A program made the translations under genes and the position numbers. A stretch of DNA of 64,000 bases from Azolla caroliniana (Eukaryota; Plantae; Polypodiophyta): the NCBI GenBank assembly GCA_043228905.1, contig JBHGNT010000021.1:11594001-11658000 (forward strand), in the 5' to 3' direction. The notes under the pieces are model-generated. The model had not been told where the DNA came from and made no database searches. It was given only the letters and a program-made list of their open reading frames with translations. Position 1 is the first letter of the stretch. Every line of letters starts with the position of its first letter. Positions 29,448 through 62,114 of this stretch are shown here, piece after piece.

Positions 29448-29505
<58 letters not shown>

Positions 29506-29721: not shown

Positions 29722-29790
29722 CAATAGATGGTATAATGGTCAAGAGCTCGATCCATATAACATAAGGTCATGGCTTTGAGTCTTGCCATA
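29722..29790 (+). other. tRNA-derived A/B-box segment in the E1 LTR
   Basis: A box TGGTATAATGG at 29729; AAGGTC variable loop; decayed B box CTTTGAGTC at 29774; U8-to-G53 spacing 45 nt. Confidence 0.6.
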
Positions 29791-29798
29791 TCATGACA

Positions 29799-30617
29799 TC
29801 CGCTACCGGAAGATAGCTCGCAAAAGATGAAGGAAGTTGCAAAAGAACCAAGCTTAAGGAATCCAAAGACAATAGGTCTCGTCTTCACTAAAGAGACGAA
29901 GGGAAAGCTATGAGTTGGAAGGGAGGATTTCCTCCTCCCTGAAGAAGAGCGAATGTTTCGCGACATGCTTGAGAGTCATGGGAAGGCTTTCGCATTTTTC
30001 CCACAGGAAATCGAATGTGCTGATCCAAGGACGATAGAGCCGATGATAATCTTCACGGTGCCGCATGTGCCTTGGAATTTGAACCCGATACCAGTTCCGA
30101 GAGCACATCTACCGAAGCTGATCGAGCTCTTAACGAAGAAGGTGGATATGGGAATTTCGGAACCATCGAATGTGTATCTTACCTCAAGGTGCAACGAACT
30201 CGGTGGCTCATATGGTGAATGCCATGAACAAGGTCTTGAAGAATTGCATCCCGGGCATCATGATGCCATTCTTGGATGACATTCCAATAAAAGGATATTT
30301 GGATGAGGAAAACGATGAATCGAATGATAAGGATGGATGGAGAAATTTTGTCGTGGATCATATGAAAGATTGTGACAAGGTGCTCCAAAGGCTCAAAGAT
30401 GCGAATTTGACATTTTCGGGAGAAAATTCCGCATTCGGGCAAGTGGAGATCTTGGTGGTAGGTCACTTGTGTGGAGCATACAGTCGGAAGCCTTCGCCAT
30501 CCAAGGTGAATGCGATCCAAGACATGAAAGAAGAATGTGTAACCCAAATAGAGGTTCGAAGGTTCCTTGGAGCATGCGTGTTTTATCATACGCCCACATT
30601 GTTGAGCCATTATACGG
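29799..30617 (+). pseudogene. RT fragment of a plus-strand D-family Gypsy
   Basis: HGKAFAF..VPHVPWNL..EPSN, an internal deletion near 30172, then LPQGATNSVA and MPFLDDIPIKG; closely similar to 42000-43095 on the other strand. Confidence 0.9.
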
Positions 30618-30966
30618 TGTCGTGTCGACCAAGGACTGCACGAAACAGGAAGGGGAAGAGAGCGAAAGTGGCGAACCGGCAATTATCGGCTACAAACGAG
30701 TAGCTAAACGAGGGCCGGCAAGTCCCGTTACCAGCATGTAATGCTCACCGGACCAAACAAAAACACAACTAGCTCTCATCGGCTCACCAAAAACACGATA
30801 GCGTACAAAGAATAGACAGGGGCACGCTCCCAACCAATTACGGGACAGCAACGAGTTAGAGAGCACACAGATACACCGGGAGACGACAACTCATAGAATC
30901 GATTCAACCTAATAAGTGATTACAATGCTCCCAAGACTACATCGGCACGACAGTGACCAACCAAAC

Positions 30967-31291
30967 TGTTGAGCGGCAAGCTCAACCGGAGCCGGATCGG
31001 CTGAATAAGCCGGAGCCGGTAAGCGAGACGGATCGGGCGAAACGGATCGGTATGACGGTGAGCAACCGAACCGGCAAGCAGTGGAGACCGGGTGCAATCT
31101 GTAACCGGAAGTCCAATCGGAAGCCTAGTATAGGATAGACTACTAGGTAGCTATAGTCTCGTAGTAAGTGTCAGATGCTCGTGTGAGCATTGAAGTACAT
31201 GGTACTTCTGTCAGTCCCAAGAGGACTTGTATAAATAGTGCTACTTAGCACAGTGTGTGTACAGAGTCTTGATATAATTTTGAAATTGTGT

Positions 31292-31334
<43 letters not shown>

Positions 31335-34300
31335 CTCTGTTTTACACTTCCGCAAACACTTACGTTTACATGGTATCAGAGCGCGAGGGTTGAGAACCTT
31401 TGCTGCAGACATTTACTCTTGAGAAGAAAACCCTAACAGGTCGAAAACAGACACAGTAGAAGACATGGATAGAGGCATGGCTACGTCGCTCCCGGTGGAG
31501 AAGCTCGACAGGAGCAACTACGCATCCTAGTCTTACAAGATGCACCAGTATCTGCTTGGACACGGGTACTGGAGTTATGTCGAAGGAGCGAATGATGCGG
31601 CGCCCGACTCGGCACACAAGGACTTCCCGGTATGGGAACAGGCGGCAAGCAGGGTGATGTACTGCTTTGCGTCCAGTGTCGGCGATCAGTTGCTCAGCCA
31701 CATCCATGACGCCAAGACACCGAAGGATGCTTGGGGGAACCTCAAAAAGGTTTTCGCCGCAAGCACCACTGCCCGGAAGCTGCAACTCAGACAAGAGTTG
31801 AGCAATGTTCGACAGAAGAACATGTCCGTGGCAGACTACACGGGCCGGATAAAGGAGATTTGCGACTCGCTCGGCTCTATCAATGTTACCGTAGAGGAAG
31901 ACGAGATGGTGCAGGTATGCCTCGGAGGCCTGGCGTCCAAGTTCGGAGCGTTCCGGACTGCGGTGTGTACAAGGGAGAATACCCCCTCATTCTTCGACTT
32001 ACAATCGATGCTCCTTGTAGAGGAGAACCACGCTGGTGCATCTACCAGTGCATCCCCGGACAGCTGAATGCTGTACACGGGAACGGATCGGCTCCGTGGG
32101 CGTGGTGGAAGAGGTGGGTCAGCACGCAATGGAGGCGACCGGCAAGAGCAGGAACAGAGGCACTATGAGCGTGCCGACAGCAGTTCCGGGACTTCCACAA
32201 GCAGGGGGAGTCAAGGCGGTGCCGGAAGCCGGCAAGACAAATCCGCTACGGAATGCTGGTACTGTGGCAAAAAAGGCCACAGGGAAAGCGAGTGCTGGAG
32301 AAAGCGTGCCGATTCGGACAAATCCGGATCCGGCAAGACCGGTAAGGATGGCCGGCAAAACTCGCACTATGCAAACGGATCAGAAGGATCCGAAACCGGA
32401 AAGGCCGGTAAGGGGCTAGCCTTGGTGATGAATCACAAGGCAAACTCAATGAAGAAGACCACTTCCAAAACGGACGAAGTGTGGTATGTTGATTCCGGCG
32501 CGTCGAACCACATGACGAGCCACAAAGAGTGGTTCTCCTTTCTGGAGAGACCGGATCAACCAGGAGTAGTCGAAACCGGAGACGACACTCCTCACCCAAT
32601 CATGCATGTCGGAGAAGTCCCTCTAAGCCACGTCGGACAGAAAGGGAAGCTGATGAACGTATTACACGTTCCGACGATCACGAAGAACCTGGTGTCCGTC
32701 GGTCAGATTGTCGACCAGGGGATGCAGGTGCGGTTTACGCACCTCGGGTGCTTCATTGAGGATGAGGGCTAAGTCATTGCGCAAGGGCATAGAGACGGGA
32801 GGATGTTTATCCTCGACACCAATGACTTTGGCACCGCTCTGTTCGCGAAACGACAGAAGGTTGAGTCGGACATCGACCTGTGGCACAAGCGGATAGGCCA
32901 CGTCAACTACCGGAGGCTTCAAGATCTGCAAACGAAACAAGTCGTTTTCGGTTTGCCAAAGTTCAATGGCCGGAGAGCCGAAATTTGTGAAGCCTGCCAA
33001 CTTGGGAAGCAACACCGGCTTCCATTCCCCACCGAACGGAACCGGAGCCGTAACAAGCTCGATCTCATCCATTCGGATGTGTGGGGACCGGCACAAAGTG
33101 TAAGCCTTGGCGGGAGCCGATACTTTGTCTCCTTCATCGACAACTATACTCGGCATACTTGGATCTACCTCATTGAGCGGAAGAGCGAAGTCTTCGACTG
33201 TTTCCGGAGCCTCCAGAAGATGGTGGAACGGGATTCGGAGAGGAAGATCAAATGCCTTCGGTCGGATGGCGGAAAGGAATATTTTTCCGGCCAATTCACT
33301 AGTTATTTGCAGCAGAAGGGAATTCGGCGAGAGTTCATCTGCAGATACACACCGGAGCAAAACGGTGTGGCCGAAAGGAAGAACCGGACACTCGTCGAAG
33401 CGGCAAGGGCAATGCTGGAGGAAAAGAGCATGCCCCGGTTCTACTGGGCGGAGGCGGTCCAGACGGCTGTCTACATACAAAACCGCATCGGTGACAAGGT
33501 GTCAGCTCATGAGCTGTATTTCGGGCGCAAACGGAACTTAAGACACCTTCGGATATTCGGCAACATAGCGTATGTGCATGTGTTGGATCAGAAGCGGAGA
33601 AAGCTGGATGCAAAATCGGAAAAATGCATCCTAGTCGGCTATGCTCAAGAGCAAAAGGGGTATAAGTGCTATAACCCCCGGACGAAGGAAGTCCAAGTTA
33701 GCCGGGATGTCGAATTCGATGAATCGGCATCCTGGTACTCCGTACCGACTCCGACTTCCGATCCCGACCCAATGTCGGAAGATCAGGCCAGTGAGCCTGA
33801 ATCAGCCCTGTCAGAGGATGATGAAGCCGGGACTCAAGATGAGAGTCCGGAATCATTACGGTTGAGTGGACCGAACGAGCGACTGAGTCGGTTGGACCAG
33901 TCGGATGAAGAGACGGCAAGTGGTGGAGACTCTGCCGTGCTCTCCCCGCGCAAGGAACCAAGGAAACGGTTCACGCGCAAAGAGAAGGGGAAGAGGAAGA
34001 TGCCGGAATTCGAAACCGGCAACGATGAGTCGGATCGGTGCGTATCCGACTCCGGAAAGGAGAAAGGCGGATCTTCGGCAACGAAGACCGAACTGGCCAA
34101 GAAGGGCCTCAAATCAGGTGACGGTGCGTTGCACCGATCAACTCGCCAGAAGGATCCCGTCATGCGGTACGGGTACAATGAATACATGGCGCATCATTAT
34201 GCGTACATGACTAAGGTGACAGAAGTGCGTGAGCCGGAGAGCTACGCAGAAGCGACAAAGGACGCAAATTGGCGTGCCGCTATGGACGAAGAAATGCGGG

Positions 34301-36814
34301 CACTCGATGCCAACGAAACTTGGGACCTAGTTGATCCTCCCCGTCATTGTAAACCGATCGGATGCAAGTGGGTGTACAAGGTCAAGTACAACGCCGACGG
34401 TTCTGTTAACCGGTACAAAGCCCGGTTAGTGGCGAAGGGATACGCGCAGACCCACGGAATCGACTACGACGAGACCTTCTCTCCTGTGGCGAAGATGACG
34501 ACGGTTCGTGTGGTACTGGCGGTTGCTGCGGCAAGGGGGTGGCATCTTCACCAGATGGATGTGAAGAACGCCTTCCTTCAAGGAGAGCTTGAAGAAGAAG
34601 TCTTTATGACTCAGCCCCCCGGATTTCAATCGGAGATGAACAAGTCGGCGGTATGCCGACTGAAGAAGTCGCTTTACGGCTTGACGCAAGCCCCCCGAGC
34701 TTGGAACACGAAGATCACGCACCGGTTGCTTAAGCTGGGGTTTGCTGTCTCTAAGTCAGACTCTTCATTTTCATCCGGCAAGGCTCTGACGGTCTGGTAA
34801 GTATACTCTTGTATGTGGATGATTTAGTCATCACCGGACCGGGTCTTCCCGAAATCAACTGCGTCAAGTCCCAGTTGTCGGAAGCATTCGAAATGAAGGA
34901 CCTGGGGGACCTCCATTATTTTCTTGGGATCGAAGTGATCCAGACCCCGGACGGCATATTGCTCTCACAACGACATTACGTGTTAAATATGTTGTATAAG
35001 TTCGGCATGACGGATTGCCGACCTGTCTCCACACCCTGGATCGGAACCAGAAGCTCCATCCCAACTCCGGACCGGCCTGCAATGAGAAACGGTTCCGACA
35101 GGTTGTCGGAAGCCTGATCTACTTAACCATCACCCGACCCGACATCAGCTATCCGGTCGGCATGGTAAGTCAGTTCATGCAGAAGCCGACCGTGGAGCAC
35201 CTTCAGTGCGCGCAACGAATATTACGGTATGTCAGCAGCACTAAGGACTGGGGATTGCTATACCGGCGAGGTATACCCGAAGAGCTTGTCGATTACACAG
35301 ATGCTGACTGGGCCGGCGATGCGTCTGATCGCCGCTCCACTTCCGGATACATGTTCTCCATAGGTAGCGCGACCGTTGCGTGGAGCAGCAAGAAGCAGCC
35401 CACAGTGGCTTTGTCAAGCACTGAGGCTGAGTACCGGGCCGCTACCGTTGCCACTTGTGAAGCCATCTGGCTTCGGCGACTGCTGCGAGACATGCGGATC
35501 GAGGTACCGATCCTGATCCCGATTTACTGCGATAACATGAGCAGCCTGCAGCTCGCCAGGAACCCTGTGTTCCATGCTTGCACAAAGCACATCGAGGTGC
35601 ACTACCACTTCGTGCGTGAGCGGGTCCTGAGCGGTGAAATTGACCTACGGTATGTTCATACAGATCGGCAAGTTGCCGACATCTTCACCAAGCCACTCGG
35701 ATCGATCAAGTTGCAGCACTTTACCGACATGCTTGGTATTCAACATCTCGACGTGCCGCACTTGAGGGGGAGAAGCAAGGGCAAAGTCTCTATCGAAACG
35801 GGCAAAGGAAAAAAAACTGTTGAACCCGTCGGTAAGAGGAGAGCCAGAAGAAGAGGAGACAAGAAGATGAAGGAAGCCGAGTCGACGAAGGAAGTCGACA
35901 CATCCGAACAGGTCGGAGCAAGCGGCTGTGAAGAAGAGTTGTGCACTCAGGACCGGCTGAAGAAGCCGAGGGAAGCATGGAGAAGGCCAAGACTCGGAAG
36001 TGGTCCGATGTGGTGAGAGGCCTGAACCCGGAAGTCGAATCGGAGTGTACCGATTCGGACAAGAGCTGGAACGAGTCGGAGACAACTGACTCGGATCAAC
36101 AGATGGATTCGGATGAGTCGGATCGACTGAAGGCCATGGGGACACAGACACAGCGGAAGTCGATGCCATCGTGGGAGAACCGACGGATCGGCAAGCGTCG
36201 GAGTCACAACAACGTGAGTGCTGAGATGGGCCTATTGAGCAGACATGCCGACCGAGAGGGTCGAGGCGCGCAGAACCAAAGGGTTCGCGGCAAACGGGAC
36301 CGGACCGGACGAGGAGCGCGAGCAAGGCGGAGTGACGCCAGGAGAAGTCGGTTGGAAGAACCGACTGCCACAGAGGTCGACACTACGACCCCACCTCAGG
36401 TAGAGCTTGAGGGGGAGTGTTGAGCGGCAAGCTCAACCGGAGCCGGATCGGCTGAATAAGCCGGAGCCGGTAAGCGAGACAGATCGGGCGAAACGGATCG
36501 GTATGACGGTGAGCAACAGAACCGGCAAGCAGTGGAGGCCGGGTGCAATCTGTAACCGGAAGTCCAATCGGAAGCCTAGTATAGGATAGACTACTAGGTA
36601 GCTATAGTCTCGTAGTAAGTGTCAGATGCTCGTGTGAGCATTGAAGTACATGGTACTTCTGTCAGTCCCAAGAGGACTTGTATAAATAGTGCTACTTAGC
36701 ACAGTGTGTGTACAGAGTCTTGATATAATTTTGAAATTGTGTTCTGCTCTCTCTGTCTCTCTCTCTCTCTCTGTTGTTCTCTGTTTTACGCTTCCGCAAA
36801 CACTTACGTTTACA
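30967..36814 (+). mobile_element. Element I: full-length Ty1/Copia, TSD CAAAC; apparently the youngest insertion
   Basis: CAAAC at 30962-30966 and 36815-36819; LTRs 30967-31370 and 36418-36814 differ by only a handful of substitutions plus the CT tract; PBS TGGTATCAGAGC at 31371-31382; PPT before 36418. Confidence 0.97.
31465..36423 (+). pseudogene. Copia I gag-pol with few lesions (665-aa open INT-RT segment at 32803-34800)
   Basis: CWYCGKKGHRESEC, WYVDSGASNHMT, LWHKRIGH..CEAC, RSDGGKEY, PEQNGVAERKNR, YVDDLV, TDADWAG; stops at 31528, 32065 and 32770; frameshifts near 34770, 35035 and 35940. Confidence 0.95.
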
Positions 36815-37941
36815 CAAACACACACCTGAAACACGTAGTGGAGCCCCTGCTGGAAGTGCTCGAGCTTCTCTTGCAAGCAGAGGCGACCGATCAAAATCTG
36901 CAGAGATCAACAGGAATGAGGAGAAGAATGCTCAGTTCCTAGTCAGACAACACTTCGTCATCGCCAAAAATGTGATTCCCTTTCAACCTTCTCCCCTTCC
37001 TCTTTATAGCCGTCGGGGAGGGACTGTCACGTCCTATTTACATCGTCTTTTTTCTCTATCCCTTCGGATAGAGATACGCATCGATTTTGTAGCTAATAAA
37101 TACATTCTACCTAGTATATTTACATCAGACCGACCTATTCCTAGTTATGTACAAACTTGTCAATTTACACATCCACATGTAAAGGTCGGTTCACCCGCTT
37201 TATCCTCCAATTCCTCTTAAGGACGGTTTTCTTCACAACATCCACCCCCACCAAACCGCACATCCATCAGCATGCACCAGAAAGGAACAAATACCGGAGA
37301 AAATCGGCTCGTGTTCACTTGTTGCCCTCCAAATCATCGTCTGCTTCAAACCGGTCGTCATCGTCATCCGCGCTCCCCGGGTCCGGCTCATCTTCATGCC
37401 GCTTCTTGAAGGCCTTGATCCTCTTCTTGGCTACCGTCGAGTTCCGTGAGATTGTAAGCGCCATTGTCATTTGTGCTCGTTACGGCGTAGGGTCCGAACC
37501 ACCTCCTCACGAACTTACGCCTTGTGCTGGTTTTCGAGGCTGTGTTCGTAAACCAGCACCCAGTTGCCTTCATTGATCTTCTTTCGTCGTAGCCGGTGAG
37601 TTCGGTCAAACCAGCCTTTGTTCTTCACCCTTGCCGTGTGCAACCTCGTCCTTGCCCGATCCACATCCTCCGGTCTCTGCTCAAGCTATCGAATTCGTGT
37701 TGCCAATAGCTCCTCTCGGCTCAGCTCATCCTTCCAGTCCACCGCGGCCCAGGAGGAGATCGTTCGCTCCATCGGCATGATCGGCTTCTGCCCGTACATT
37801 AGCTTTACCGGCATGAACCTAGTTACCAAACTATGAGTAGTTCGGTCCGCCCACAATGTGTAAGATAGGAGCCGCAACCAATTCCCGACTTGCCCTTCAC
37901 ATGCCAATACTAATGCCTTCACGATCGGCCCGTGCCCGCGT

Positions 37942-38610
37942 TGTTGTGAAGATCCGTCACTATGTGCGGATCGTGAGGAGGAACCACCGGGGTTCTAGAC
38001 CGGAAGGACTCGAAGTACGCACTAGCTTTAGCGAGAAAGGATTTAAGATAGATTGAGAGAGAGAGAGATTGAGAGAGAGAGAGATTGAGATAAGATAAAA
38101 CGCTTGACTTTAGATTGAGAGAGATTATGATTGAACTCTTGACTTTCGATTTGAAGAACAAGATTGATACATCAATTGGATAACGAATTTCTTACTTTTA
38201 ATTTCTTGATTAATACATCACTCCCCTTTTGCTTGATTCCTCCATTGTTTTATAGATGCCCCCATGCATATGGTGCATGTGAGAGTGCAAGACATGCACG
38301 GAATGCATGAAATGCATGCAATGCACGCAATACATGCTTGCCATGTTATCATCTAAGCTCTCACACATGAGAATTTATATGTAAAACTGGTGATAAAAAT
38401 ATAAGCCCTAAAGAAATGATTTCGCTTAATGGTAAGCCTATAAACTCTCAACTTGGAGGTAAAAGGATCAAATCTTCACTTGCACTCTTTTTACAAGTAT
38501 TATTATATATATAATCTCTAAAGAAATGATTTCGCTTAATGGTAAGCCTATAGACTCTCAACTTGGAGGTGAAAGGATCAAATCTTCACTTGCACTCTTT
38601 TTACAAGTAT

Positions 38611-38653
<43 letters not shown>

Positions 38654-39765: not shown

Positions 39766-39837
39766 TTGACCCCCACCAAACCGCTCGTCGTCCGGTACGT
39801 GCCAAGAAGGGAGAGTGTGAGATTTAGGCTATGGTGA

Positions 39838-42800
39838 TCAATCAGATTCCTTCACGTCTTCATTCACATCCGCCCTATTATCTTCATCGTCAAGGTGATC
39901 GAGGTCAGGATCCTCGTCTTGTCTTTTCTTGAAAATCTTTACTCTTTTCCCCACAATGGGTACGACCAACTTTGATCCGTCTAGCTCCGCAAGGTGGTAT
40001 GTGGCATTATCGTTGGCAGTTGTCACCACATACAGTCTGAACCATCTTCTTGCAAACTTTCTTGTTGTACTGTGTTGATTGTCAAGGCTAATGTCGTAGA
40101 CCAATACCCAATCTCCTTCTTCGATCTTCTTGGGATGCAGTCGCGTCTTGTCGAACCGAATTTTGTTCTTCACTCCGGCTACCTCCATCATCTTTCGCGC
40201 TTTTTCTAGATCTTCGGGTCTTCTTTCAAGTTGCCTTATCCGTGCCGCTAATAACTCTTCTCAGCTCATCTCGTTCTCCCATGGTATCGCTACCCATGAG
40301 CTCGACCGTTGCATGCTCATGAGTAGTGATACCATGGGAGAACGAGATGAGCCGAGAAGAGTTATTAGCGGCACGGATAAGGCAACTTGAAAGAAGACCC
40401 GAAGATCTAGAAAAAGTGTGAAAGATGATGGAGGCAGCCCGAGTGAAGAACAAAATTCGGTTCAACAAGACGCGACTCATCTTGTTCTCCCATGGTATCG
40501 CTACCCATGAGCTCGATCGTTGCATTATCGGCTTTTGTCCATACATAAGCTCCGTTGGCATATACCCTGTCACCGAGCTGTGTGTCGTTCTGCCAGCCCA
40601 CAAGGCATAGGGCAATAGTCGTGGCCAATTCCCGACTCGACCGTTGCATGCTCGTACGATGCCTTTGACGTTAGGTCCATGCACTGACTCGATCTTCCCA
40701 TTCGCTTCTGGATTGTAGGCAGTCGCGAGGGAGAGCTTCACACCTAGTCGTTCAAAAAGCTCTGTTGCTTCGTGTGCATCCAACTCCCCTCAGTCGGCGA
40801 CTATCTTTCCCACACATCCGTATTGGCAGACAACCTCTTCGAGTAGAAATTTGCAAACAACCGACGTCGTCTTATTTGTCAAGGCACGTACTTCCACTTG
40901 ATTTGTCAAGTCTTCTCTTGCCAGATGTAAGTACTTCATTTGTCCCACTCCCATTGGCAATGAGACCAGATCCACCATCCATTTGAAGTGTATGGTGAGC
41001 GGGTATGTTGGTCGTAGCTCATCACGATGACGTATATTCGAATGTACTTGGCATGTTTTGCATGTGGATACGAAATGGAGTACATCTTTGTATATGCTTG
41101 GCCACCAGTACTTCTCCTTCAACTTCTCGAACATCGCCCATGTTCCTCCATGACCTGCCCAAGCACTCTCGTGGAATTCGTTCATTAGCGTCACTTGCTC
41201 TTCTTTCTTCACCACCACTTGACGTGGTATTCCTGTCCTTCTTTTTGGGTGTCGCCAAAGGAAGCCTCCCTTCAAGAAGTATTGGTAAGCTTTCTTCTGA
41301 ATTCGTAGGGCCTCCTCCTTCGTCAACGAAGCATCCGCCGTCATTGTTTTTAGGAATCGGCCGATCTGTAACCACTCTCCTTCATACTCATCCTTGTTGA
41401 AGGCGTGGAGGGTTAGTGTGTCCTTGTCTTCTGCTGATAGTCGAGCCATCTTGAAGAAGTCGAGGTTGACTTCTTCATCTTCCGAAACCATGTCACTTTC
41501 ATTCTCAAATCTTGCCCTTGACAGCATGTCAGCCATGGCGTTCTTCTTCCCTGCAATATGGCAGATCTCTAGGTTTAAAGACTTGATATAGGCGATCCAC
41601 CTTAGCATAGCTAGATCTGGTGTCACAAATCCTGAGATCATCCCAAGGATTGTGAGACAATCTGTCTCAATTATTACTTCTGACTCGATCAGGTAGTCTT
41701 TGTCCGTCTTCACTGTTGACACAATACCCCAAAGTTCTCGCTTGACTTGGGTGTATCTTTGTTGTCGTTTTCTAAGAACCTTTGCTCCGAACCGGATGGC
41801 ATACCGCGCATTATCTTCTTCTTCTTGGTTGATGACCCACCCGATTCCGGTTGGGCTCATATCTACAATCACATAAATCGGCTTCCCTTCGGTATAGTCG
41901 GCCTTTCTTAGTGCTGGAGCTTCAAGAAGTAGTTTCTTCAATCTTCGCATCGTGTTTGTGTGCTCGTCTCACCATTCGAACTTCATTCTTTTCTTTAGCA
42001 ATCCATATAAAGGCTCGGTGACATGGGTAAAGTGCGGAATCCAGATATGATAAAACGTGCATGCTCCAAGGAACCTTCGAACCTCCGTTTGGTTTACGCA
42101 TTCTTCTTTCATATCCTGGATCGCGTTCACCTTGGATGGCGAAGGCTTCTGGCCGTATGCTCCGCACAAGTGACCTACTACCAAAATCTCCACTTGCCTG
42201 AATGTGGATTTTTCTCCCGAAAATATCAAATTCGCATCGTCAAGCCTTTGGAGCACCTTCTCACAATCTTTCATATGATCCGCAACGAGCTTTCTACACC
42301 CTTCCTTATCTTTCGATTCATCTTTCTTCTCATTCGAACATCCTTTTATCGGAATATCATCCAAGAATGGCATCGTGATGTCCGGGATGCAATCCTTCAA
42401 GACCTTGTTCATGGCATTCACCATATGAGCCACCGAGTTCGTTGCACCTTGAGGTAAGGTACACATCCGCACGAGCCCGATCGGAGTCCTCATGGTCGTA
42501 ATGTCACGACTGTCGATTGCCAACTGGAATTGGTCATATCCGGAGTAGAGATCGCCAATTGAGTAGATGGACCAGCCCGCAAATGCCTCGGCAAATTCGT
42601 CCACACTCGGACTGATTCCAGCATTTTGAATTGTCACCTTGTTGACGGGTTGAAGATCTTGGATGAATCGCAATTATCCATTCTTCTTTGGCACCGTGAA
42701 CCACCTATTAGAGTAAGGAGCATTCGATGGTTCCAAAATTCCCATATCCACCTTCTCCTTTAAGAGCTCAATCAGCTTCGGTAGATGTGCTCTCGGAACT

Positions 42801-45720: not shown

Positions 45721-45737
45721 TCACGTCGGGTTCACCA
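45721..45737 (-). promoter_or_regulatory. tRNA-Trp PBS of D
   Basis: Plus strand TCACGTCGGGTTCACCA, 8 nt from the LTR edge at 45746. Confidence 0.9.
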
Positions 45738-45745
45738 CTTAATTA

Positions 45746-46268
45746 TGTCGTGAAGATCCGTCACTATGTGCGGGTCGTGAGGTGGAACCACCGGGGTTCT
45801 GGACCGGAAGGACTCAAAGTACGCACTAGCTTTAGCCAGAAAGGATTTAAGAGAGATTGAGAGAGAGAGATTGAGATAAGATAGAACGCTTGACTTTAGA
45901 TTGAGAGAGATTAAGATTGAACTCTTCACTTTAGATTTGAAGAACAAGATTGATACATCAATTGGATAACGAATTTCTTACTTTTAATTTCTTGATTAAT
46001 ACATCGCTCCCCTTTTGCTTGATTCCTCCACGCTTTTATAGATGCCCCCATGCATATGGTGCATGTGAGGGTGCAAGACATGCATGCAATGCATGCAATG
46101 CATGCAATGCATGCTTGCCATGTCATCATCTAAGCTCTCACACATGAAAATTTATATATAAAACATAAAAATATAATCCCTAAAGAAAGGATATTGCTTA
46201 ATGGTAAGCCTATAGACTCTTAACTTGGAGGTGCGAGGATCAAATCTTCACTTGCACTCCTTTTGAAT

Positions 46269-46301
<33 letters not shown>

Positions 46302-46839
46302 TATGTTTTATTATTATTATTATATATTGTGGTGTGCATGTATGCCTCGTGCCACTCTTTTAGCACACCCTTTTTAGGATGCATGTACCTAAGCCGACCC
46401 ACCCTTTTAGCATACCCTTTTAAGCTAAGCCAACCCAAATGGGTACCTTTGTATAAACTATAAATTGAGTAAGAAGTAAGAAACTAACTAGACTAGTTTT
46501 GATCTCTTATGTGCATTTCACAATATATATGTTTTTTTACAAGGAGTTTTTCTATCCGGTCATCATCTCGCCGGCTCCGTCGGTCACTCTTTTATAGATG
46601 CCCCCATGCATATGGTGCATGTGAGGGTGTAAGACATGCACGGAATGCATGAAATGCATGCAATGCATCCTTACCATGTCATCATCTAAGCTCTCACACA
46701 TGAGAATTTACATGTAAAATTGATGATAAAAATATAACCCTTAAAGAAATGATTTGGCTTAATGGTAAGCCTATAGACTCTCAACTTGGAGGTGCAAGGA
46801 TCAAATCTTCACTTGCACTCCTTTTGAATATACATATAT

Positions 46840-46922
<83 letters not shown>

Positions 46923-47931
46923 TTATATGTATGTATTTTTACAAGGCCTTTCTCCTTGCGGTCATCGTCTCACTGGCTCCGTCAGTCACTCTTTTATAAA
47001 TGCCCCCATGCATATGGTGCATGTGAGGGTGCAAGACATGCACGCAATGCATGCAATGCATGCAATGCATGCTTGCCATGTCATCATCTAAGCTCTCACA
47101 CATGAGAATTTACATGTAAAACTGGTGATAAAAATTCTCACACATGAAAATTTATATGTAAAGAAATGATTTGGCTTAATGGTAAGCTTATTGACACTCA
47201 ACTTGGAGGTGAAAGGATCAAATCTTCACTTGCACTCCTTTTGAATATACATATATATGTGCGTGTGTTTTATTATTATTATATATAGATATGTATTTTT
47301 ACAAGGCGAAAATTTATATGTAAAGAAATGATTTGGCTTAATGGTAAGCTTATTGACACTCAACTTGGAGGTGAAAGGATCAAATCTTCACTTGCACTCC
47401 TTTTGAATATACATATATATGTGCGTGTGTTTTATTATTATTATATATAGATATGTATTTTTACAAGGCGAAAATTTATATGTAAAGAAATGATTTGGCT
47501 TAATGGTAAGCTTATTGACACTCAACTTGGAGGTGAAAGGATCAAATCTTCACTTGCACTCCTTTTGAATATACATATATATGTGCGTGTGTTTTATTAT
47601 TATTATATATAGATATGTATTTTTACAAGGCGTTTCTCCGTCCGGTCATCGTCTCGCCAGCGCCGAATGATGCTGAATGCCGATTGCCAGATGCCCTTGC
47701 CGGATCGGTCGGTTGCCGTCGTCGCTCGCCGGTCTCGCCAACTCCCATTGACGGATCTGTCCAAAACACATAGTTATATGCATTTGGCATCCATTTGTTA
47801 AGTCATACAACTTAACCTTTCTATGCTCCACACATGAACACAAAGATAATAGCTTTTGCTCTGTCTTATATATGGTGGGATCCTTATTTGTCCTATCTAT
47901 GTGGGATATCACATTGTTTTATTTTTCTCTT
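45746..47931 (-). repeat. 5' LTR of D, expanded by repeats and truncated
   Basis: Matches 37942 onward; a block beginning TTTTATARATGCCCCCATGC recurs at about 46034, 46590 and 46992; (TTTA)n at 46838-46922; three copies of a 162-bp unit at 47147-47631. Confidence 0.88.
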
Positions 47932-53372: not shown

Positions 53373-54071
53373 TGTCGTGAAGAAAACCGTCCCTAGGCGG
53401 AAACCGAGTCTAGCATGTGTAAACCGGCCCTTACACGCGAGCACACATTTCATTGTATAGTAAGTAGGTAGGTACAAGTCGGCTGAGGTGAAATCCTAGG
53501 TAGCACGCATTCAATAGGGAGAGAATCAAGGTGTATCTCTGTCTGAAAGGACAGAGAATTAATGTGATGTAACGGATGATAACAACCTCCCTCCTTGGGC
53601 TATAAAAGAGAGGGAGAGGAATGGAAAAGGTATCGCGCGTTAAAGAGGACGAAGTGCTGCCGGACTGGGACCGAGCCCTTCTCCTCTGCCACTCTCCATA
53701 GCCATTTTTGCGTAGGTTTTCGGGAGGCTGACTCTGCTCTGTGGAACGCCCGTGTGCTTCCGGTAGAGTCTCCATCTCGCTCTTTTGTGTGTGAGTGAAT
53801 AAGCGTCGGTGTTCGCCTTGCCGGCCTGTTAGTTGTAACCGTCTTGATATATATATATATTTATATACATACGTGTTCATATACTCAGACTTCTAGTCGT
53901 CTCGTTTAAATGCTGTGTTGTTGGACTGTGATCCTTGTGTGCTCCCGTGTCTATGCGTGTGCAAGTGCGTCCGTTGCCTTTCCGTTCTCCTCCTTCTCAG
54001 CTATTTTTCGGTCCAAGACCCCGGTGGTCCCGCCTCATTCTCCACGCACGCGCGTAACAACGCGACATATG

Positions 54072-54088
54072 TGGTGAACCCGACATGG
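54072..54088 (+). promoter_or_regulatory. tRNA-Trp PBS of F2
   Basis: TGGTGAACCCGACATGG, 4 nt after the LTR end. Confidence 0.85.
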
Positions 54089-54111
54089 ACAAGCGGCAGA
54101 GGAATAGAAAG

Positions 54112-56238
54112 ATGAGGGGGTCGGATATCGCGGAAGCCATGGCTTCGGCTGTGGATCGGATAGTGAGTGCGCGCGAAGGCGCAGGCGCCCTCGATAGGGC
54201 TATTGAAGCGGTCGTCGGCGCGATAGGCTGGTTCGGTGGGAAGGATGCCACGAGCTATTTGGAGGCCTACCGGGCCTAGATGGTAATGAGAGACATTCCG
54301 GAAGAAAGGCGATTGACTGGATTCCCTCGAGTGGCGATGTCGGGCATCCATGCAGAGGTGCTCGAGGTATGGGCTGAGAGCCGGACCTGGGAAGAGTTTG
54401 AAGGTCGGCTCCTCGAAAAATACGGGCTTGATGACGCGCTTTGGCTCTCGAAACGGGACTTCATGGAATGGGTAGAGACCCCCGAAAAGGGGAGAAACAC
54501 GTCGGTGCTCCTCCGGGAGTTTGAAGAACGCTTCGTGCGTCTTTCGGCGCTCGACCGGACCGTACTAGACACAAGTCGCGTCCTGCTGTTCGTTAAGTCA
54601 GTGGATGCGAGGGACCGGGAGCAAGTGGGTCTCCTACTGGAAATTGATGACGGGTTGACGGCCGACTGGGCTGTGGTGAAGAGAGTCTATAGCCGTTTCG
54701 ACAAACAGCGAGAGTGGGTCGATAAAGGATCAACAGGGGCAGGCTCTGTAACAGCAAGGAAACTCGAGCCAACCCCGCCAGCGCAAAGGGAAGAGACCCG
54801 AGACTGGCTCGAGACCAGATCGATTTCGACCGGCATGGTCAAAGGCTCGTCCGGAGGAGCAGCTCTAGAGGAGCTGACTAGGATGGTAAAGGACCTCCAG
54901 ATTGCACAGGCATGGAGGGACGGCGGCGAACAGGCCCGTGACCGAAGGCCTCTGGCTGGAAACCAGTGTTTGTGGTGCGACGCGATCGGCCACGTCCGAA
55001 AGGACTGCGGGGACTTTGCCGAGGCAATGAGAGCCAACGTGGTGTACCTATGGAACGGTCGGGTGCACGCTAGCGAGACCCGAAGGACCCTAGACCTGAA
55101 TGTCAGACGAGGGGGTATGAAATGGCTGATGGTAGAAGTGGTGGCTCGCCAAGCGGAGACCATCCACTACTCGGCGTCGGCTGGGATCCGGGTCGGAGGT
55201 GGTGAGGCCCGGGAGACGAACGAAGCCGAAATCTAGGCCGTTGATGCTGGAAGGCCTCGCCGGCGCACGACTAAGGAAAGAAGAGGCGGACCGCGCGGAA
55301 AAACGGGTCTGGGACGTAACCAGGTGGAGTGACCCGGTCGAAGAGAAGACGGGCTTCGTTGAAGCCGCATGCCAGAACTACGAGGCTCTGGTGGAAGACA
55401 AGCGAGTAGGTAAAACCGGAGGGGCCGGGCCCTCGCAACGGTACGAGACTCGATTCGGTCAAAGGCAAATGAGGCCGGTGCGACCGGCACACCGGATAAA
55501 GCCAAGAAGGCCGGGTACCGGTTGAGCACGGATATCGAAAGGACCATGGACCTACGAAAGGTCTTGGAGGAACGTATCCTCGATTACAAATTGGAGTTGT
55601 CGCTAAGGGAAGTGCTCGGGATCACCAAGAAGGAGTTCCACGACTCCATCGTAGACTTGGTGAAGAGGAAGAGGCTATCGACAGAGCCAGAGCCGGAGAA
55701 GCCGGTGGAAGTGCAAACGATGCACATAGAGGACATGGCGCTAGAAGACGAGTTGGCGGAGAGCCACAATTTGAGGCCGCACTAGGCCAGAGCGACCACG
55801 GAGACCCCTGTTAAGATCGGGGATGTCCAAGAGCCGGTGGTGGCGTTGGTGGACCATGGTTCAGAAATCAACTTGATGTCCATGGACTTCTACAAAAAGG
55901 GGAAATGGCCTATCAACACCAAACACGACTGGAAAATACGGGCAGCGACGCACGCCACGGAAGAACTACATGGAGCCTACCCGAACGTACGGGTGAAAAT
56001 CGGCGATGTCGAGATCGACCAACACTTCTTCGTGTAGGAGACGTCCTCACATCCGGTTATACTAGGGGAACCATACATCACGGCGGCACGGATGGAGACC
56101 AAGGTACTGGACAACAGTTCGGCCTATGCAAGAGTCAAGAGCCAGGACGGGCGTCGCTCGTTCCAGTTCCTGACGGTGCGACCAAACCATGAGCATAACC
56201 ACGAGACCCTCGGTGGCGAAACCCAAGGTGATTTTTAG
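54112..56238 (+). pseudogene. F2 gag-protease
   Basis: MRGSDIAEAMA.., CLWCDAIGHVRKDC, ALVDHGSEINLM; ends GDF*. Confidence 0.9.
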
Positions 56239-56294
56239 AGAGGGCTATCAAGGCGTGGGGCCGCGATAGTCCATACACCCCGAAAAAACCCCAC
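56229..56294 (+). promoter_or_regulatory. Putative -1 ribosomal frameshift signal of F2
   Basis: T GAT TTT TAG; stem 56242-56249 with 56265-56272; loop GTGGGG able to pair with CCCCAC at 56289-56294; the -1 frame is open from 56232 into RT. Confidence 0.72.
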
Positions 56295-59200
56295 AAATGT
56301 ACAATAGGGGAGAAGACCTGTACCATAGGTAGGAAATTTTGGTTCTCCGACAATGGGGGTTGTACGATTGTCGGCGTCGTTGGCCGGGAGAAGAAGAGGG
56401 CGGAGGAGCGACTTCGGGCATGCGGAGTCCTCAGCCCTGGAGAGGAAATCAACGGAGTTGTGGAGACGGTCTCTTTCGACGACACCTTGGGACAGTTACG
56501 AGAGGTGGTCGGAGGAGGCCTTAAAGAGGACCAGACGATTCCGATATGTTCAGAAGGGATGTACGAAGTCATCGCCGAATTTTGTAACGGGCTCGAGTTG
56601 GATTGGACGGCCCAGGTGGACACAAAGTACAAGACTGTGGACCGGAAGGTGAGGCCAGTAGCGGCACCCTTGCCGGAGGGCAGCGAGTTACGAGTAAAGG
56701 GGGGTGCGTCGGACCCGAGTTTGCGAGATCCGGCCAGCATAGGACACACGTTCATCGCTATAACGCTACGAGAGCTCAAGATCGGTGGGGGTGGCTTTCT
56801 ACTGCCGGCGGAAGAGGACCAGTTTCCGAGAACGCTCGGGAGGCACAGGAAGGCTTTCGCGTTCTCACCGGAGGAGATCGGGTGCGTAGACCCGACAGTT
56901 GTGGAACCGATGGTGATCTTCACGGTACTGCATGTGCCATGGAACCTCAAACCGATTCCGGTACCCAGAGCTAACATCCCGAAGCTGATGGAGCTGTTGA
57001 AACAAAAGGTCGAGATGGGCATCCTCGAACCATCGAGTGCCCCATACTCAAATCGGTGGTTTACCATGCCAAAGAAAAACGGCACATTACGTTTTATTCA
57101 AGACCTGCAACTGGTCAACAAGGTGACCATTCGGAACGCAAGAATCGGATCGACCATAGACGAGTTCGCGGAGGCCTTCGCCGAAAGGTCGATTTACTCT
57201 GTCGGTGATCTGTACTCGGTGTACGATCAGTTCCAACTAGTCGTGGAGAGCAGAGACATTACGACGATGCAGACTCCTCTCGGCCTAGTGCGGATGTGTA
57301 CCCTACCACAAGGAGGGACGAACTCGGTGGCTCACATGGTGAACACGATGAACAAAGTGCTTAGGGATTGTATCCCGAACATCACCATGCCATTCTTAGA
57401 AGACATCCCGATCAGGGGATGCCAAGTTGAGGAAAAGGACGAGACAATCGGACCGGACGGATTTTGGAATTTTGTGGCGACTCACATCGATGACTGCGAG
57501 AAGGTGCTGCAGAGACTAGAAGGCGCGAGACTCACCTTCTCCGGGGAGAAATTGGCCTTCGGGCAATCAGAGATCATGGTCGTCGGGCACCTATGCGGAC
57601 CATACGGTCGGAAACCGTCTCCGGCCAAGGTGGAAGCCATCTCCGCGATGAAGCATGACTGCAATTCGGTTACGGAGGTTCGGATATTCTTGGGAGCATG
57701 CGTGTTCTACCATATCTAGATCCCGCATTACACCCACGTCGCGGAGCCGTTGTATGGGTTGCTGAATAAAGGGCGTAAATTCGAGTGGGGAGACGAGCAT
57801 ACGGAGTCAATCCGAAAGATGAAGGAAGCACTTGCCATGGCACCGGCGCTCCGAAAGGCTGTCTATGGCAAAGACACTCCGATTTACGTAACCGTAGACA
57901 CGAGTTCGACCGGGATCGGATGGGTGATCAACCAAGAGGATGACGTTGGCACGAGGTTCCCCATCCGGTTCGGCGCGAAGGTCCTCAGTGCGCGACAGCG
58001 AGGATACGCCCAGGTTAAACGCGAACTCTGGGGTATCGTTTCGGCGGTGAAGGCCGATAAAGACTATCTGATCAGGACAGAGGTAATAATCGAGACGGAC
58101 TGCTTGCCGATTCTCGGCATGGTTTCCGGATGCGCGACACCGGACCTGGCAATGCTCAGGTGGATAGCGTACATCAAGTCCCTGAATCCGGAGATACGAC
58201 ACATTTCCGGAAAAGACAATGCCATGGCCGACATGCTCTTAACGGCGAGGTTCGAAAACGAGGACGGCACGGTTTCGGAGGACGAGGAAGTCGGCGTAGA
58301 TTTCTTCGAGGCGACATACGTGACAACTAGAAAGGGGAGCACTCCGGCACTTTATGAATTCGACGAGAGCAAGTATGACGGGGTGTGACTCCAGATCGGC
58401 GGGCTCCTGAAAACAATGATACCGGACGTGGCGTGGACAAAGGAAAAGACCAACCGGATCCGGAAGGAAGCGTATCGATTCTTCCTTCGGGACGGGTACA
58501 TATGGAAGCACCCGAAGAAGAGGGACGGAATCCCGCTCCGAGTGGTGGCGAAGAAGGAGGAACATGAGGAGTTGCTGGAGGCCTACCACGAGAGTCCCTA
58601 GGCCGGACACCGCGGAATGTGGGCCACGTTCGAGAAGCTAAAGGGGAAGTACTGGTGGCTGGGACTGTACCGGGACGTGCATTGGTTCGTGACGACTTGC
58701 GAAAGCTGTCAGATGCACTCCATAGTCCGACATTGGGACGAGCTTCACCCGACCTACCCCCCGACCTTCCACTTCAAATGGATGGTGGATTTGGTGATTA
58801 TGCCGATGGGGGTAGGACAAATGCGATATCTGGTGCTGGTTCGGGAGGATCTGACAAACCAGGTTGAAGGCCGAGCGCTGCAGAACAAAACAACCACGTC
58901 TGTGTGCTGGTTTCTGATCGAGGACATGATATGTCGATACGGGAGTGTAGGAAAGATTGTGGCTGACCGCGGAGAGTTGGACGCGCAAGAGGCTGAAGAG
59001 TTGTTTGACCGACTAGGGGTCAAACTCTCGCTCACCAAAGCATACAATCCGGAGGCTAACGAGAAGGTGGAGCGCGGACACGGGCCGATCATCAAAGCGC
59101 TAGTGCGGGCGTGTGAAGGCCAAGTCGGGAACTGGCCACGACTACTACCTTATGCCTTGTGGGCGGACCGAACTACGCACAGTTCGGTAACCGAGTTCAT

Positions 59201-59723
59201 ACTAGCAGAGCTTATGTACGAACAAAGGCCGATCATGCCAACAGAGCGAACCATCTCCTCATGGGCCACGATGGACTGGAGAGATGAGATGAGCCGGGAG
59301 GAGCTGCTAGCAGCACGGATTAGACAGCTTGAGCGAAGGCCAGAGGACGTGGAATGAGCCGTAGAGAAGCTTCGGTTGGCAAGGTTGAATAACAAAGGGC
59401 GGTTTGACTGGACTCACCGACTGCGACCGAAGAAAATCGAGGAACGTGACTGGGTCCTAGTGTATGACAACAACCTCGACAACCAACGTAGGGCAACGCG
59501 GAAGTTTGCAAGGAGGTGGTTCGGGCCTTACGTGGTGACAGGCACCAACGACAACGGGACTTACCATCTTGCGGAGCTCGACGGTACGAGGATAGCAATA
59601 CCGGTAGTGGGGAAGAGGGTCAAAGCGTTTAAGAAACGACACGAGTGTGAGCTGGATCTGGAAAGCATGGATGGCGACGACGGGCGGTCCGAGGCGGATG
59701 ACGATTCGGAAGACGAGAAGTAA
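56232..59723 (+). pseudogene. F2 pol (RT, RH, INT)
   Basis: RFIQDLQ, LPQGGTNSVA, VDTSSTGIGW, KWMVDLV, VADRGEL, RRWFGPYVV; several in-frame stops; no chromodomain. Confidence 0.93.
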
Positions 59724-60638
59724 AGCATGGACCGGTTTTCTCCATCAAGAGCCCAATTTTGGCGCATACCGGTGTATGCGCGGTTAGGTGGGGGCGGATG
59801 TCGTGAAGAAAACCATCCCTAGGCGGAAACCAAGTTTAGCATGTGTAAACTGGCCCTTACACGCGAGCACACTTTTCGTTGTATAGTAAGTAGGTAGGTA
59901 TAAGTCGGTTGAGGTGAAATCCTAGGTAGCACACATTCAATAGGGAGAGTATCGAGGTGTATCTCTATGTAACGGATGATAACAGCCTCCCTCCTTGGGC
60001 TATAAAAGAGAGGGAGAGGAATGGAAAAGGTATCGCGCGTTAGAGAGGACGAAGTGCTGCCGGACTGGGACCGAGCCCTTCTCCTCTGCCACTCTCCATA
60101 GCTTTTTTTGCGCAGGTTTTCGGGAGGCTGACTCTGCTCCGTGGAACGGATGATAACAGCCTCCCTCCTTGGGCTATAAAAGAGAGGGAGAGGAATGGAA
60201 AAGGTATTGCGCGTTAGAGAGGACGAAGTGCTGCCGGACTGGGACCGAGCCCTTCTCCTCTGCCACTCTCCATAGCTTTTTTTGCGCAGGTTTTCGGGAG
60301 GCTGACTCTGCTCCGTGGAACGCCCGTGTGCTTCCGGTAGAGTCTCCATCTCGCTCTTCTGTGTGTGAGTGAACAGGCGTCGGTGTTCGCCTTGCCGGCC
60401 TGTTAGTTGTAACCGTCTTGATATATATATATATTTATATACATACGTGTTCATATACTCGGACTTCTAGTTGTCTTGTTTTGCTGTGTTGTTGGACTGT
60501 GATTCTTGTGTGCTCTCGTATTTATGCGTGTGCAAGTGCATCCGTTGCCTTTCCGTTCTCCTCCTTCTCTGCTATTTCTTGGTCCAAGACCCCAGTGGTC
60601 CCGCCTCGTTCTCCACGCACGCGCGTAACAACGCGAGA

Positions 60639-61450
60639 ACGTGACAAAGGTGCTTCAGCGGTTAAACATGTCAAACGCGAAACTGGTCGGATCGACACTT
60701 CTGGCAAACTGCAGATTATCCGGTAAGCAAAACCCGAAGATGAAAGCAGAGAAGGTGGATATGATGAAGGTTCCATATGCCTCTGTCGTCAGGAGCTTAA
60801 TGTACGCAATGGTGTGTACTCGACTGGATATTGGATATGCAGTCGAAGTGGTGAGCCGGTTTATGAGCAATCCCGGCAAGGAGCTCTAGAACGCGGTCAA
60901 ATGGATACTCCGGTACTTGAAGGGCACTTCGAATATTTGACTCCGATTCGACTTCGGTAAAACTCAACTTGACGGTTTTACCGATTCGGATATGTCGGTT
61001 GATGTGGATACTAGCCGTTCTGCTTCCGGGTATGTAATGACATATGCAGGGGGAGCTATTTTGTGGCAGTCGAGGCTGCAAAAGACGGTTGCATTGTCAA
61101 CCACGAAGGCGGAGCACATGGCGGTTGTTGAAGCCGGTAAGGAAATATTATGGATGAAGAACTTCATCAGAGAGCTCAATGTCCGGCAAGATGAATACCG
61201 GCTCTATTGTGACAGTCAAAGTGCCATCCACCTTGCTAAGAACGCAACGTACCATTCCAAGACGAAGCACATCCAGCGTAGGTATCACTGGATCCGGGAG
61301 CGAGTAGAAGATCAATAGTTCACGTTGACGAAGATCCACACAACCGAGAACGGGTCAGATATGCTGACCAAAGTACTGATACCCGACAAGCTGGATGCAT
61401 GTTGGAAGCGGATCATACTAGTAAGACATCCCATGCCGGAGTGAAGGGGG
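60639..61450 (+). pseudogene. Copia J RT C-terminus and RNase H
   Basis: VTKVLQR..KVPYAS..LMYAMVCTR, WQSRLQKTVALSTT, CDSQSAIHLAKN, KHIQRRYHWIRE. Confidence 0.93.
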
Positions 61451-62008
61451 AGTTTGTTAGGAAACAGATCCCTCCGGATGGGATAGGAGTACCCGGCAAC
61501 GGAAGACCCGGTGAGAACCGGATGACGAGTGTCCGGCAAGAGCCGGATGGTGAAGGCCCGGTGAAGACCGGATGACGAGTGCCCGGCAAGAGCCGGATGA
61601 TGCAGGCTGTCGAGACTCGTGGGTAGAAGATAGAGCGAGAGCGAGAGCGAAAGAGAGAGGGTGTGTGTGTGTGTGTGCCTAAGAGAGAGAGAGAGAGAGA
61701 GAGAGTGAGAGAGAGTGAGAGAGATAAGGCTTGAAATAGGAATGAGATTATATTATGATGAAACAAGATTACAATGAGTAAGTTAAGGGCTAAAGACTGG
61801 TGTTGAACCGAATGAGTTGAAACGAATGTATAGACAATTATTTATAGGTCCTTATGGAGTAATCTAGAATGTTCTAGAATATTTTAGATTTTATGATAAG
61901 AAATATAATCATGAAATATTAAAGGATGTTCTACAATAATCTAAAATGTTCTAGAATATTCTAATATCTTGTAATAACTAGAAACATAATTATTATAATC
62001 ACACAACA

Positions 62009-62080
62009 TATATGTTATTACAATGGTTAAGGGTTCAACACATAAACCAAGATGTCGTGGGTTCGATTCTTGATAACCAA
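62009..62080 (+). other. tRNA-derived A/B-box segment in the E2 LTR
   Basis: A-box-like TATTACAATGG at 62016; B box GTTCGATTC at 62061; spacing 45 nt; followed by ..TAACCA. Confidence 0.65.
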
Positions 62081-62114
62081 AATGTTGTCTTCATGACATT
62101 ATCCCCCCCTTTCG

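What the first reader, a model, noticed from the sequence alone, without database searches (positions are those of the whole stretch)
29722..62098. Antisense tRNA-derived Pol III cassette at the U3 tip of coding chromovirus LTRs
Seen: two diverged E-family LTRs each carry, within about 90 nt of the U3 terminus and antisense to the element, an A box and a B box at exactly tRNA spacing (45 nt from U8 to G53). E1 reads TGGTATAATGGTCAAG..AAGGTC ATGGC TTTGAGTC at 29729-29782; E2 reads TATTACAATGGTTAAG..GATGTC GTGGG TTCGATTC at 62016-62069. The boxes are kept while the anticodon arm is not. Known: Cassandra TRIMs carry 5S-derived Pol III promoters in their LTRs but are non-autonomous, and TFIIIC-bound B boxes can act as chromatin barriers. 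Inference: a self-priming retroelement that needs no tRNA primer has co-opted a tRNA head as an insulator against surrounding heterochromatin, or as an outward/antisense Pol III promoter. I am not aware of this being described for autonomous plant chromoviruses.
Basis: partly seen in the sequence, partly recalled or inferred. Interest (0 to 1): 0.75.

Follow-up and report, generated by a model that had tools for sequence, protein, structure and literature searches.

The report
Retrotransposons carrying backward tRNA promoter boxes
Several protein-coding jumping-gene families of a non-seed plant, likely a moss, carry a backward-facing tRNA-like promoter signal at the outer edge of their end repeats, and because it has outlasted the neutral sequence around it, it likely binds the host's tRNA-gene factor and would shield the element's own promoter from silencing.

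Summary
Real. Both sites exist at the stated coordinates, antisense, at the U3 tip of Tcn1-type chromovirus LTRs (E1: 5' LTR with a 12-nt self-priming match; E2: 3' LTR behind PPT and chromodomain). They score 21.8 and 29.9 bits on a tRNA-trained matrix; 3.84 million shuffled positions gave 6 at 20 or more, none at 25. The same head sits at the same place in 4 of 10 related loci (5 of 8 families counting E1/E2), although neighbouring four-fold codon sites are near saturation. It is not a cloverleaf and has no TSD. A tRNA-primed Phygy-like family in the same window carries 8 similar antisense heads, so self-priming is not the cause. Against function: both E1-family copies lack the invariant B-box C; three Tcn1 families, SM-Tcn1 and RLG1 have no head; no binding or RNA data. 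Best reading (0.45): a retained TFIIIC site acting as a boundary 110-185 nt upstream of the Pol II TATA. Closest known: Helenus/Cassandra TRIMs (non-coding; sense in the Helenus LTRs seen). This scan noted tRNA boxes in chromovirus LTRs of another genome before. New variant of a known kind.

The parts
29359..29798 (-). E1: 5' LTR (440 bp, TG...CA) of a Tcn1-type chromovirus
   Evidence: ends; followed by self-priming site and gag stub; contigs that run on into a PPT behind 29798 show the family's 3' LTR form; 83% identical over 143 nt to the LTR of coding locus L015
29729..29782 (+). E1 tRNA-like head, antisense to the element: A box 29729-29740, variable-loop motif 29765-29769, degenerate B box 29773-29782
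   Evidence: 21.8 bits, spacing 45; B core fails GWTCRANNC
29611..29616 (-). E1 TATA box, 112 nt from the head's U8
29572..29583 (-). E1 predicted transcript 5' end, complementary to the site behind the LTR
   Evidence: 12-nt match starting 33 nt below the TATA start
29345..29356 (-). E1 self-priming site in place of a tRNA PBS
29120..29305 (-). E1 gag start, truncated
   Evidence: tblastx 55% over 62 aa to L003 gag, E 1e-17
61608..62098 (-). E2: 3' LTR (491 bp) of a Tcn1-type chromovirus, abutting a truncated copia LTR
62016..62069 (+). E2 tRNA-like head, antisense: A box 62016-62027, consensus B box 62060-62069
   Evidence: 29.9 bits, spacing 45; fits GWTCRANNC
61841..61846 (-). E2 TATA box, 169 nt from the head's U8
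62099..62112 (-). E2 polypurine tract
   Evidence: sequence
62103..63764 (-). E2 integrase, SH3 and chromodomain region; two in-frame stops, so this copy is dead
   Evidence: Pfam integrase and SH3_Tf2-1; translation; aligns end to end with chromodomain-bearing relatives
6762..6815 (+). tRNA-like head, antisense, in an LTR of the Phygy-like family P1
   Evidence: 20.1 bits; T4 at 65 nt
38422..38584 (+). two tandem antisense heads in the 3' LTR of Phygy-like element P1
   Evidence: 22.9 bits each
46194..47548 (+). five antisense heads (46194, 46755, 47172, 47334, 47496) in the 5' LTR of P1
   Evidence: 22.1-24.8 bits; all fit GWTCRANNC and have T4 at 67 nt
27399..27452 (-). tRNA-like head, sense to its element, below the TATA of a related Phygy-like LTR (P4)
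   Evidence: 27.0 bits

Best explanation
The two sites are tRNA-like A- and B-box heads lying antisense at the U3 tip of coding Tcn1-type LTRs, likely captured once by an ancestor of the clade and likely kept because the host factor TFIIIC binds them and would act as a boundary for the element's own Pol II promoter. Steps: (1, shown) the head lies between the LTR edge and the TATA box, 112-169 nt upstream of it and facing outwards. (2, established) U3 is copied into both LTRs at every replication, so one capture is fixed in all descendants and needs no TSD. (3, inferred from sequence) selection kept the boxes, the variable-loop motif and a 44-47 nt spacing but not the cloverleaf, the acceptor stem or a terminator, the pattern of a protein site on DNA. 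(4, inferred from yeast) bound TFIIIC, with or without Pol III, would position nucleosomes, block spread of heterochromatin or stop read-through from the flank, which matters to an element whose chromodomain likely steers it into heterochromatin. It is an accessory: other Tcn1 families thrive without it.
For: Head at the same place and strand in L003, L004, L011, L015. E2, L003, L004 and L015 form one clade, 100/99. Among E1, E2, L003, L004 mean pairwise identity is 0.71 in the A box, 0.90 in the variable-loop motif and 0.67 in the B box, against 0.49 in the spacer, 0.48 upstream (shuffled 0.47) and 0.46 downstream; four-fold codon sites of the adjacent integrase are 0.21-0.48 identical in the 6 pairs of this clade. 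4 of 6 Tcn1 heads fit the yeast core GWTCRANNC (core from PMC4228148). No shared fold: z from +0.4 to -1.8 for the six. An unrelated Phygy-like family has 8 antisense heads, the two measured lying 158 and 184 nt upstream of the TATA, in tandem-multiplied U3 modules, and a relative has one on the other strand. In yeast Pol III complexes act as barriers, insulators and read-through blocks (PMC4228148 passages).
Against: No binding, chromatin or RNA data. Both known copies of the E1 family, which has the greater summed depth, lack the invariant B-box C whose loss severely lowers TFIIIC binding. In that family the 5' half of the A box is polymorphic, including G10 to A in 13-59% of depth, and the invariant run round the D-loop GG is not significant (p 0.14 over 41 listable sites). 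6 of 10 related loci (3 families), SM-Tcn1 and the first 400 nt of P. patens RLG1 show no head (the last two by eye). Heads were aligned on their boxes, which favours box identity. The matrix is from bacterial tRNAs. Yeast also shows the opposite effect, silencing of nearby Pol II promoters.
Confidence: 0.45

Rival explanations
1. Neutral passengers: SINE or Helenus-like heads, whose arms were already degenerate, were picked up several times at the U3 tip (for example by template switching just after plus-strand priming) and now simply ride along.
For: The tree needs 2 changes: L011 has a head but its sister L006 has none. E1-family B box is broken in 2 of 2 copies. Most Tcn1 families seen outside one clade lack it. 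Heads of different sequence occur in other LTRs of the window.
Against: Four families form one clade with the head at one place; spacers keep weak residual similarity (0.49 against 0.38 shuffled) and three of the four families share the letters just behind the B box, which points to one old origin, older than saturation of four-fold sites. No free SINE with TSD was seen in the window.
Confidence: 0.2
2. An outward-firing Pol III promoter: it makes RNA into the flank from the 5' LTR and antisense RNA over PPT and chromodomain from the 3' LTR, which would tune the element or decoy silencing.
For: Both boxes at tRNA spacing are kept, not the B box alone. In the Phygy-like family all 8 heads have a T4 at 65-67 nt, like a discrete unit.
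Against: In Tcn1 heads the first T4 falls at 65, 108, 125, 266, 521 and 1080 nt, so no conserved product. Antisense RNA over its own 3' end would be expected to feed siRNA silencing (inference).
Confidence: 0.15
3. An RNA-level site: in the genomic RNA the stretch behind the PPT is complementary to tRNA D and T arms and pairs with a packaged tRNA to help dimerisation or strand transfer, like the 3' half of the Ty3 bipartite PBS.
For: Position and strand match the Ty3 3' PBS in U3 (PMC5371799 passages). The best-kept motif is the variable loop, which is outside the two boxes.
Against: These elements self-prime (12-nt matches in E1, L003, L004), so no tRNA holds the 5' end to bridge. The three letters between variable loop and B box differ between families, breaking contiguous pairing to one tRNA. 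A related LTR has a head on the sense strand.
Confidence: 0.15
4. A landing pad that draws tRNA-gene-seeking retroelements, as proposed by earlier notes for another genome.
For: Earlier unreviewed notes e1-10420520 and e1-10702772; Ty3 and dictyostelid precedent.
Against: No nested insertion lies between head and TATA in E1 or E2 or in L003, L004, L011. It would not explain selection on the carrier.
Confidence: 0.05

Closest known systems
Helenus TRIMs (Kojima 2024, PMC10886601; read parts 1-3 of 6, Discussion, figure legends and tables, supplement passages)
   Same: tRNA-derived A and B boxes inside an LTR, boxes kept while tRNA function is lost, proposed origin by SINE insertion; one family in Selaginella.
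   Different: Helenus is non-coding and under 1.3 kb; in the LTRs shown in the supplement passage the tRNA part is sense to the element and would transcribe it. Here the carriers have full gag and pol frames, keep a TATA box, and the head is antisense and points out of the element. The paper states that autonomous partners must use Pol II promoters, and also that 'not a few' Repbase LTRs have tRNA-like parts that it did not follow up.
Cassandra and Ajax TRIMs (as described in PMC10886601; PMC7215508 seen as search listing only)
   Same: small-RNA-gene-derived Pol III promoter in an LTR
   Different: 5S-derived, non-autonomous, drives the element's own RNA
Tcn1 chromoviruses, e.g. SM-Tcn1 and P. 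patens RLG1 (PMC6317226 passages and file 5; PMC2864245 passages and file S3; PMC7466625 passages and Table 1)
   Same: self-priming, chromodomain, two frames, LTR of about 440 bp
   Different: SM-Tcn1's LTR and the first 400 nt of the RLG1 assembly show no antisense B box by eye; none of the passages read mentions a tRNA-like part
Yeast tDNA and ETC sites as boundaries (PMC4228148 passages)
   Same: B-box core GWTCRANNC near a Pol II promoter
   Different: host chromosomal sites with proven TFIIIC binding; here carried by a mobile element and untested
Ty3 bipartite PBS (PMC5371799 passages)
   Same: tRNA-complementary sequence in U3 just behind the PPT
   Different: Ty3 is tRNA-primed and pairs with one tRNA; these elements self-prime and keep promoter-like spacing

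Membership tests
Tcn1 chromovirus | self-priming site instead of a tRNA PBS | tested here: met
   12-nt complement to the predicted 5' end in E1, L003, L004; 11 nt in L006
Tcn1 chromovirus | integrase followed by a chromodomain with aromatic cage | tested here: met
   E2 aligns with chromodomain-bearing relatives; cage Y and Y present, the W position is a stop in this copy
Tcn1 chromovirus | placement with Tcn1 references in an RT-RH-INT tree | tested here: inconclusive
   tree on integrase C-terminus has no named reference; likeness to SM-Tcn1 pol and LTR motifs seen by eye
Tcn1 chromovirus | 5-bp TSD | not testable with these tools
   E1 is truncated; E2's other end lies beyond the window; no genome held
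Helenus / TRIMp3 | non-coding, short internal region | tested here: not met
   L003, L004, L011 have pol frames of 1183-1235 codons; L003, L004 gag frames of 383-389
Helenus / TRIMp3 | tRNA-derived A and B boxes in the LTR | tested here: met
Helenus / TRIMp3 | Pol III promoter oriented to transcribe the element | tested here: not met
   heads are antisense and face out of the LTR
tRNA gene | cloverleaf scored by ARAGORN or Rfam RF00005 | tested here: not met
independent tRNA-SINE insertion | own TSD and tail, absent from most copies | tested here: not met
   no flanking repeat over 8 nt; only 16-36 nt between B box and LTR tip; region covered at family depth in the runs laid
type 2 Pol III promoter / TFIIIC site | B core GWTCRANNC with A box at tRNA spacing | tested here: inconclusive
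   met in 4 of 6 Tcn1 heads and 8 of 8 P1 heads; not met in E1 and L015
type 2 Pol III promoter / TFIIIC site | TFIIIC or Pol III occupancy, or transcript | not testable with these tools
   no ChIP data or raw stranded RNA on hand
Phygy (for element P1) | non-chromovirus gypsy with tRNA-Trp PBS | tested here: inconclusive
   TGG-type PBS at about 45724-45738 and no chromodomain hit; the tRNA identity is recalled, Phygy features; no tree made

The most novel reading that the evidence does not exclude
Autonomous LTR retrotransposons of two unrelated lineages in one moss-like genome have independently domesticated tRNA promoter boxes as a portable TFIIIC insulator: each new copy brings its own chromatin boundary into heterochromatin, and thousands of such LTRs redraw the host's map of TFIIIC sites.
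Probability: 0.3. Interest if true: 0.8.

Novelty: new variant of a known kind. Interest (0 to 1): 0.56.

Why it matters
How elements that target heterochromatin keep their own promoter usable is an open question; a built-in TFIIIC site gives a simple, testable answer, with natural controls (sister families without the head, a family with a broken B box). It would extend small-RNA-gene capture from non-coding TRIMs to coding elements, in a new orientation and role, and would mean hundreds to thousands of mobile candidate TFIIIC sites per genome.

Tried and rejected
No whole genome is held, so no copy-by-copy LTR alignment. ARAGORN and Rfam found no tRNA at the heads. A loose mismatch scan with recalled box motifs was too unspecific and was replaced by the trained matrix. 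could list differences only about 30 nt or more from the ends of the laid part, so the E1-family B box was not readable; one search showed only 40 of 146 differences (none of the 40 in E2's boxes, expected about 1.3, not significant). No RNA holder listed; this is no evidence either way. Viral contigs gave 2 distant loci and no exact E1 motif; genome contigs gave 22 loci, none with a head at 16 bits or more. Conserved RNA fold: not found. Tandem look of L003, L004, L006 may be assembly through a collapsed LTR and was not used. The tRNA-like elements in fungal loci L072 and L051 are not part of the chromovirus LTR there. No structure or complex jobs were run: not relevant.
Full report
Setting. 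The window is a nest of LTR retrotransposons: copia elements, DUF4100-type gypsy elements resembling Phygy, and chromoviruses. No whole genome is held. The host is inferred to be a non-seed land plant, likely a moss, because Tcn1 occurs in mosses and club-mosses (PMC6317226 passages).

Anatomy. E1 is a 440-bp LTR on the - strand (29359-29798) followed by a 12-nt complement of its predicted transcript start, 33 nt below the TATA start, and by a gag stub 55% identical to L003 gag: a 5' LTR of a self-priming element. E2 is a 491-bp 3' LTR (61608-62098) behind a PPT and an integrase-SH3-chromodomain frame with two stops. Self-priming, the chromodomain and shared motifs with SM-Tcn1 (by eye) point to Tcn1; 83% of 1500 Tcn1 elements are listed as self-priming. 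E1's family is coding: L015 has the E1 LTR behind a chromodomain and PPT.

Observation. A matrix from 37 class I tRNAs (spacings 43-47) scores E2 29.9 and E1 21.8 bits, real tRNAs 28-48; in 3.84 million shuffled positions 6 reached 20, 1 reached 22, none 25. They are not tRNA genes and share no fold. E1's B box fails the core GWTCRANNC at G53 and at the invariant C.

Relatives. A protein-based scan, blind to the LTR, found 571 relatives in metagenome contigs and returned 79 loci. I built a tree from E2 and 29 of the 103 loci in hand, chosen by identity and coverage. Twelve rows form the plant-type clade (91/90); L010 ends before its LTR. Of the other 10 loci, 4 have the head at the U3 tip, antisense (L004 32.8, L003 29.7, L015 28.3, L011 23.2 bits) and 6 do not (best 7.1 bits in the first 300 nt): 5 of 8 families with E1/E2. 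None of 10 LTR starts from outside that clade exceeds 9.0 bits. E2, L003, L004 and L015 are one clade (100/99); L011 sits with head-less L006, so there were two gains or one gain and two losses. L003, L004 and L011 have open pol frames of about 1200 codons; they may be collapsed assemblies of many copies.

Conservation. In the clade, four-fold codon sites are 0.21-0.48 identical and the 40 nt upstream of the head are at shuffle level (0.48 against 0.47), while A box, variable-loop motif and B box are 0.71, 0.90 and 0.67 identical (shuffled 0.43, 0.37, 0.37) and spacing stays at 44-47; the spacer is 0.49 against 0.38. A single old neutral capture would not look like this. The caveat is that segments were cut by the boxes themselves.

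Family level. Contigs of 4 of 4 runs (organisms A-D) lie on the E2 stretch, 363-1107 per run, and 718-1249 per run on 101 nt of E1; summed depth is no copy number but suggests high-copy families, E1 the larger. In one search a loose-end cell from 19 contigs of X3 shows a B box fitting the core. In one search, 12 of about 41 listable sites vary by 5% or more, six in the 5' half of the A box; two of these break the tRNA pattern (G10, A14). The D-loop GG and the variable-loop motif show no listed change, but the longest invariant run is not significant (p 0.14). The E1-family B box could not be listed; both known copies lack C56, which may be CpG decay or a fixed loss.

Not tied to self-priming. 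Of 20 LTR stretches of the window scored (boundaries approximate), 6 have a head of 20 bits or more: E1, E2, three LTRs of Phygy-like P1 (8 heads, antisense, upstream of the TATA) and P4 (sense); 14, including all 9 copia LTRs, stay under 12. P1 has a TGG-type PBS. So two unrelated lineages place an outward-facing head 110-185 nt upstream of the TATA.

Mechanism. Kept boxes and spacing, lost fold, no conserved terminator in Tcn1 (first T4 at 65-1080 nt), position between flank and promoter, and tandem multiplication in P1 fit a DNA-binding site best. In yeast, TFIIIC affinity rests on the B box and Pol III complexes act as barriers, insulators and read-through blocks, but can also silence nearby Pol II promoters (PMC4228148 passages). 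RLG1-type chromodomains are thought to target heterochromatin (PMC7466625 passages). Binding and boundary action are inferred, not shown: 0.45. Rivals: repeated neutral capture of SINE-like heads 0.2; outward Pol III promoter 0.15; tRNA pairing at RNA level like the Ty3 3' PBS (a similar HIV-1 case is recalled, not seen in any call) 0.15; landing pad 0.05.

Novelty. Six full-text searches listed no paper that by title or abstract describes such heads in coding plant chromovirus LTRs; most subscription papers, Repbase and REXdb files were not searchable, and Kojima notes that other Repbase LTRs have tRNA-like parts. Earlier unreviewed notes of this scan report tRNA boxes in chromovirus LTRs of another genome.

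Noticed in passing
window 6762, 38422, 38532, 46194, 46755, 47172, 47334, 47496 (+): Phygy-like LTR family P1 carries 8 antisense tRNA-like heads in tandem-multiplied U3 modules, all fitting GWTCRANNC and followed by T4 at 65-67 nt; one folds with z -2.6. A better candidate for a discrete Pol III unit than the Tcn1 heads.
   Followed up: partly
window 27399-27452 (-); weak homologues at 38183 and 45969 (-): A second, sense-strand head below the TATA in the related LTR P4 (27.0 bits); decayed in P1 (8.0 and 3.3 bits), while P4 keeps only the A-box part of the antisense head. The two LTR types seem to keep one head each.
   Followed up: partly
L072 3613-3787; L051 14281-14353: Fungal-type contigs hold an intact cloverleaf-scoring element (55.9 bits Rfam tRNA in L072). 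In L072 it reads either as a TG...CA solo LTR with a 5-bp TSD, like Helenus, or as a SINE with a 13-nt repeat.
   Followed up: partly
L074 56-109 (-); L038 5021 (+): Another tRNA-like head (29.8 and 19.0 bits) in fungal-type loci; context not resolved.
   Followed up: no
window 29118 and 29799: E1 sits between two Phygy-like pol fragments of opposite orientation with no TSD: a rearranged nest.
   Followed up: no
window 40134-40481: A 163-bp-arm fold-back duplication inside the integrase end of P1.
   Followed up: no
SM-Tcn1 (PMC2864245 file S3), bases about 395-410 and 497-510: The 2010 paper found no sign of self-priming, but its printed sequence shows by eye the same kind of complement as L004.
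   Followed up: no
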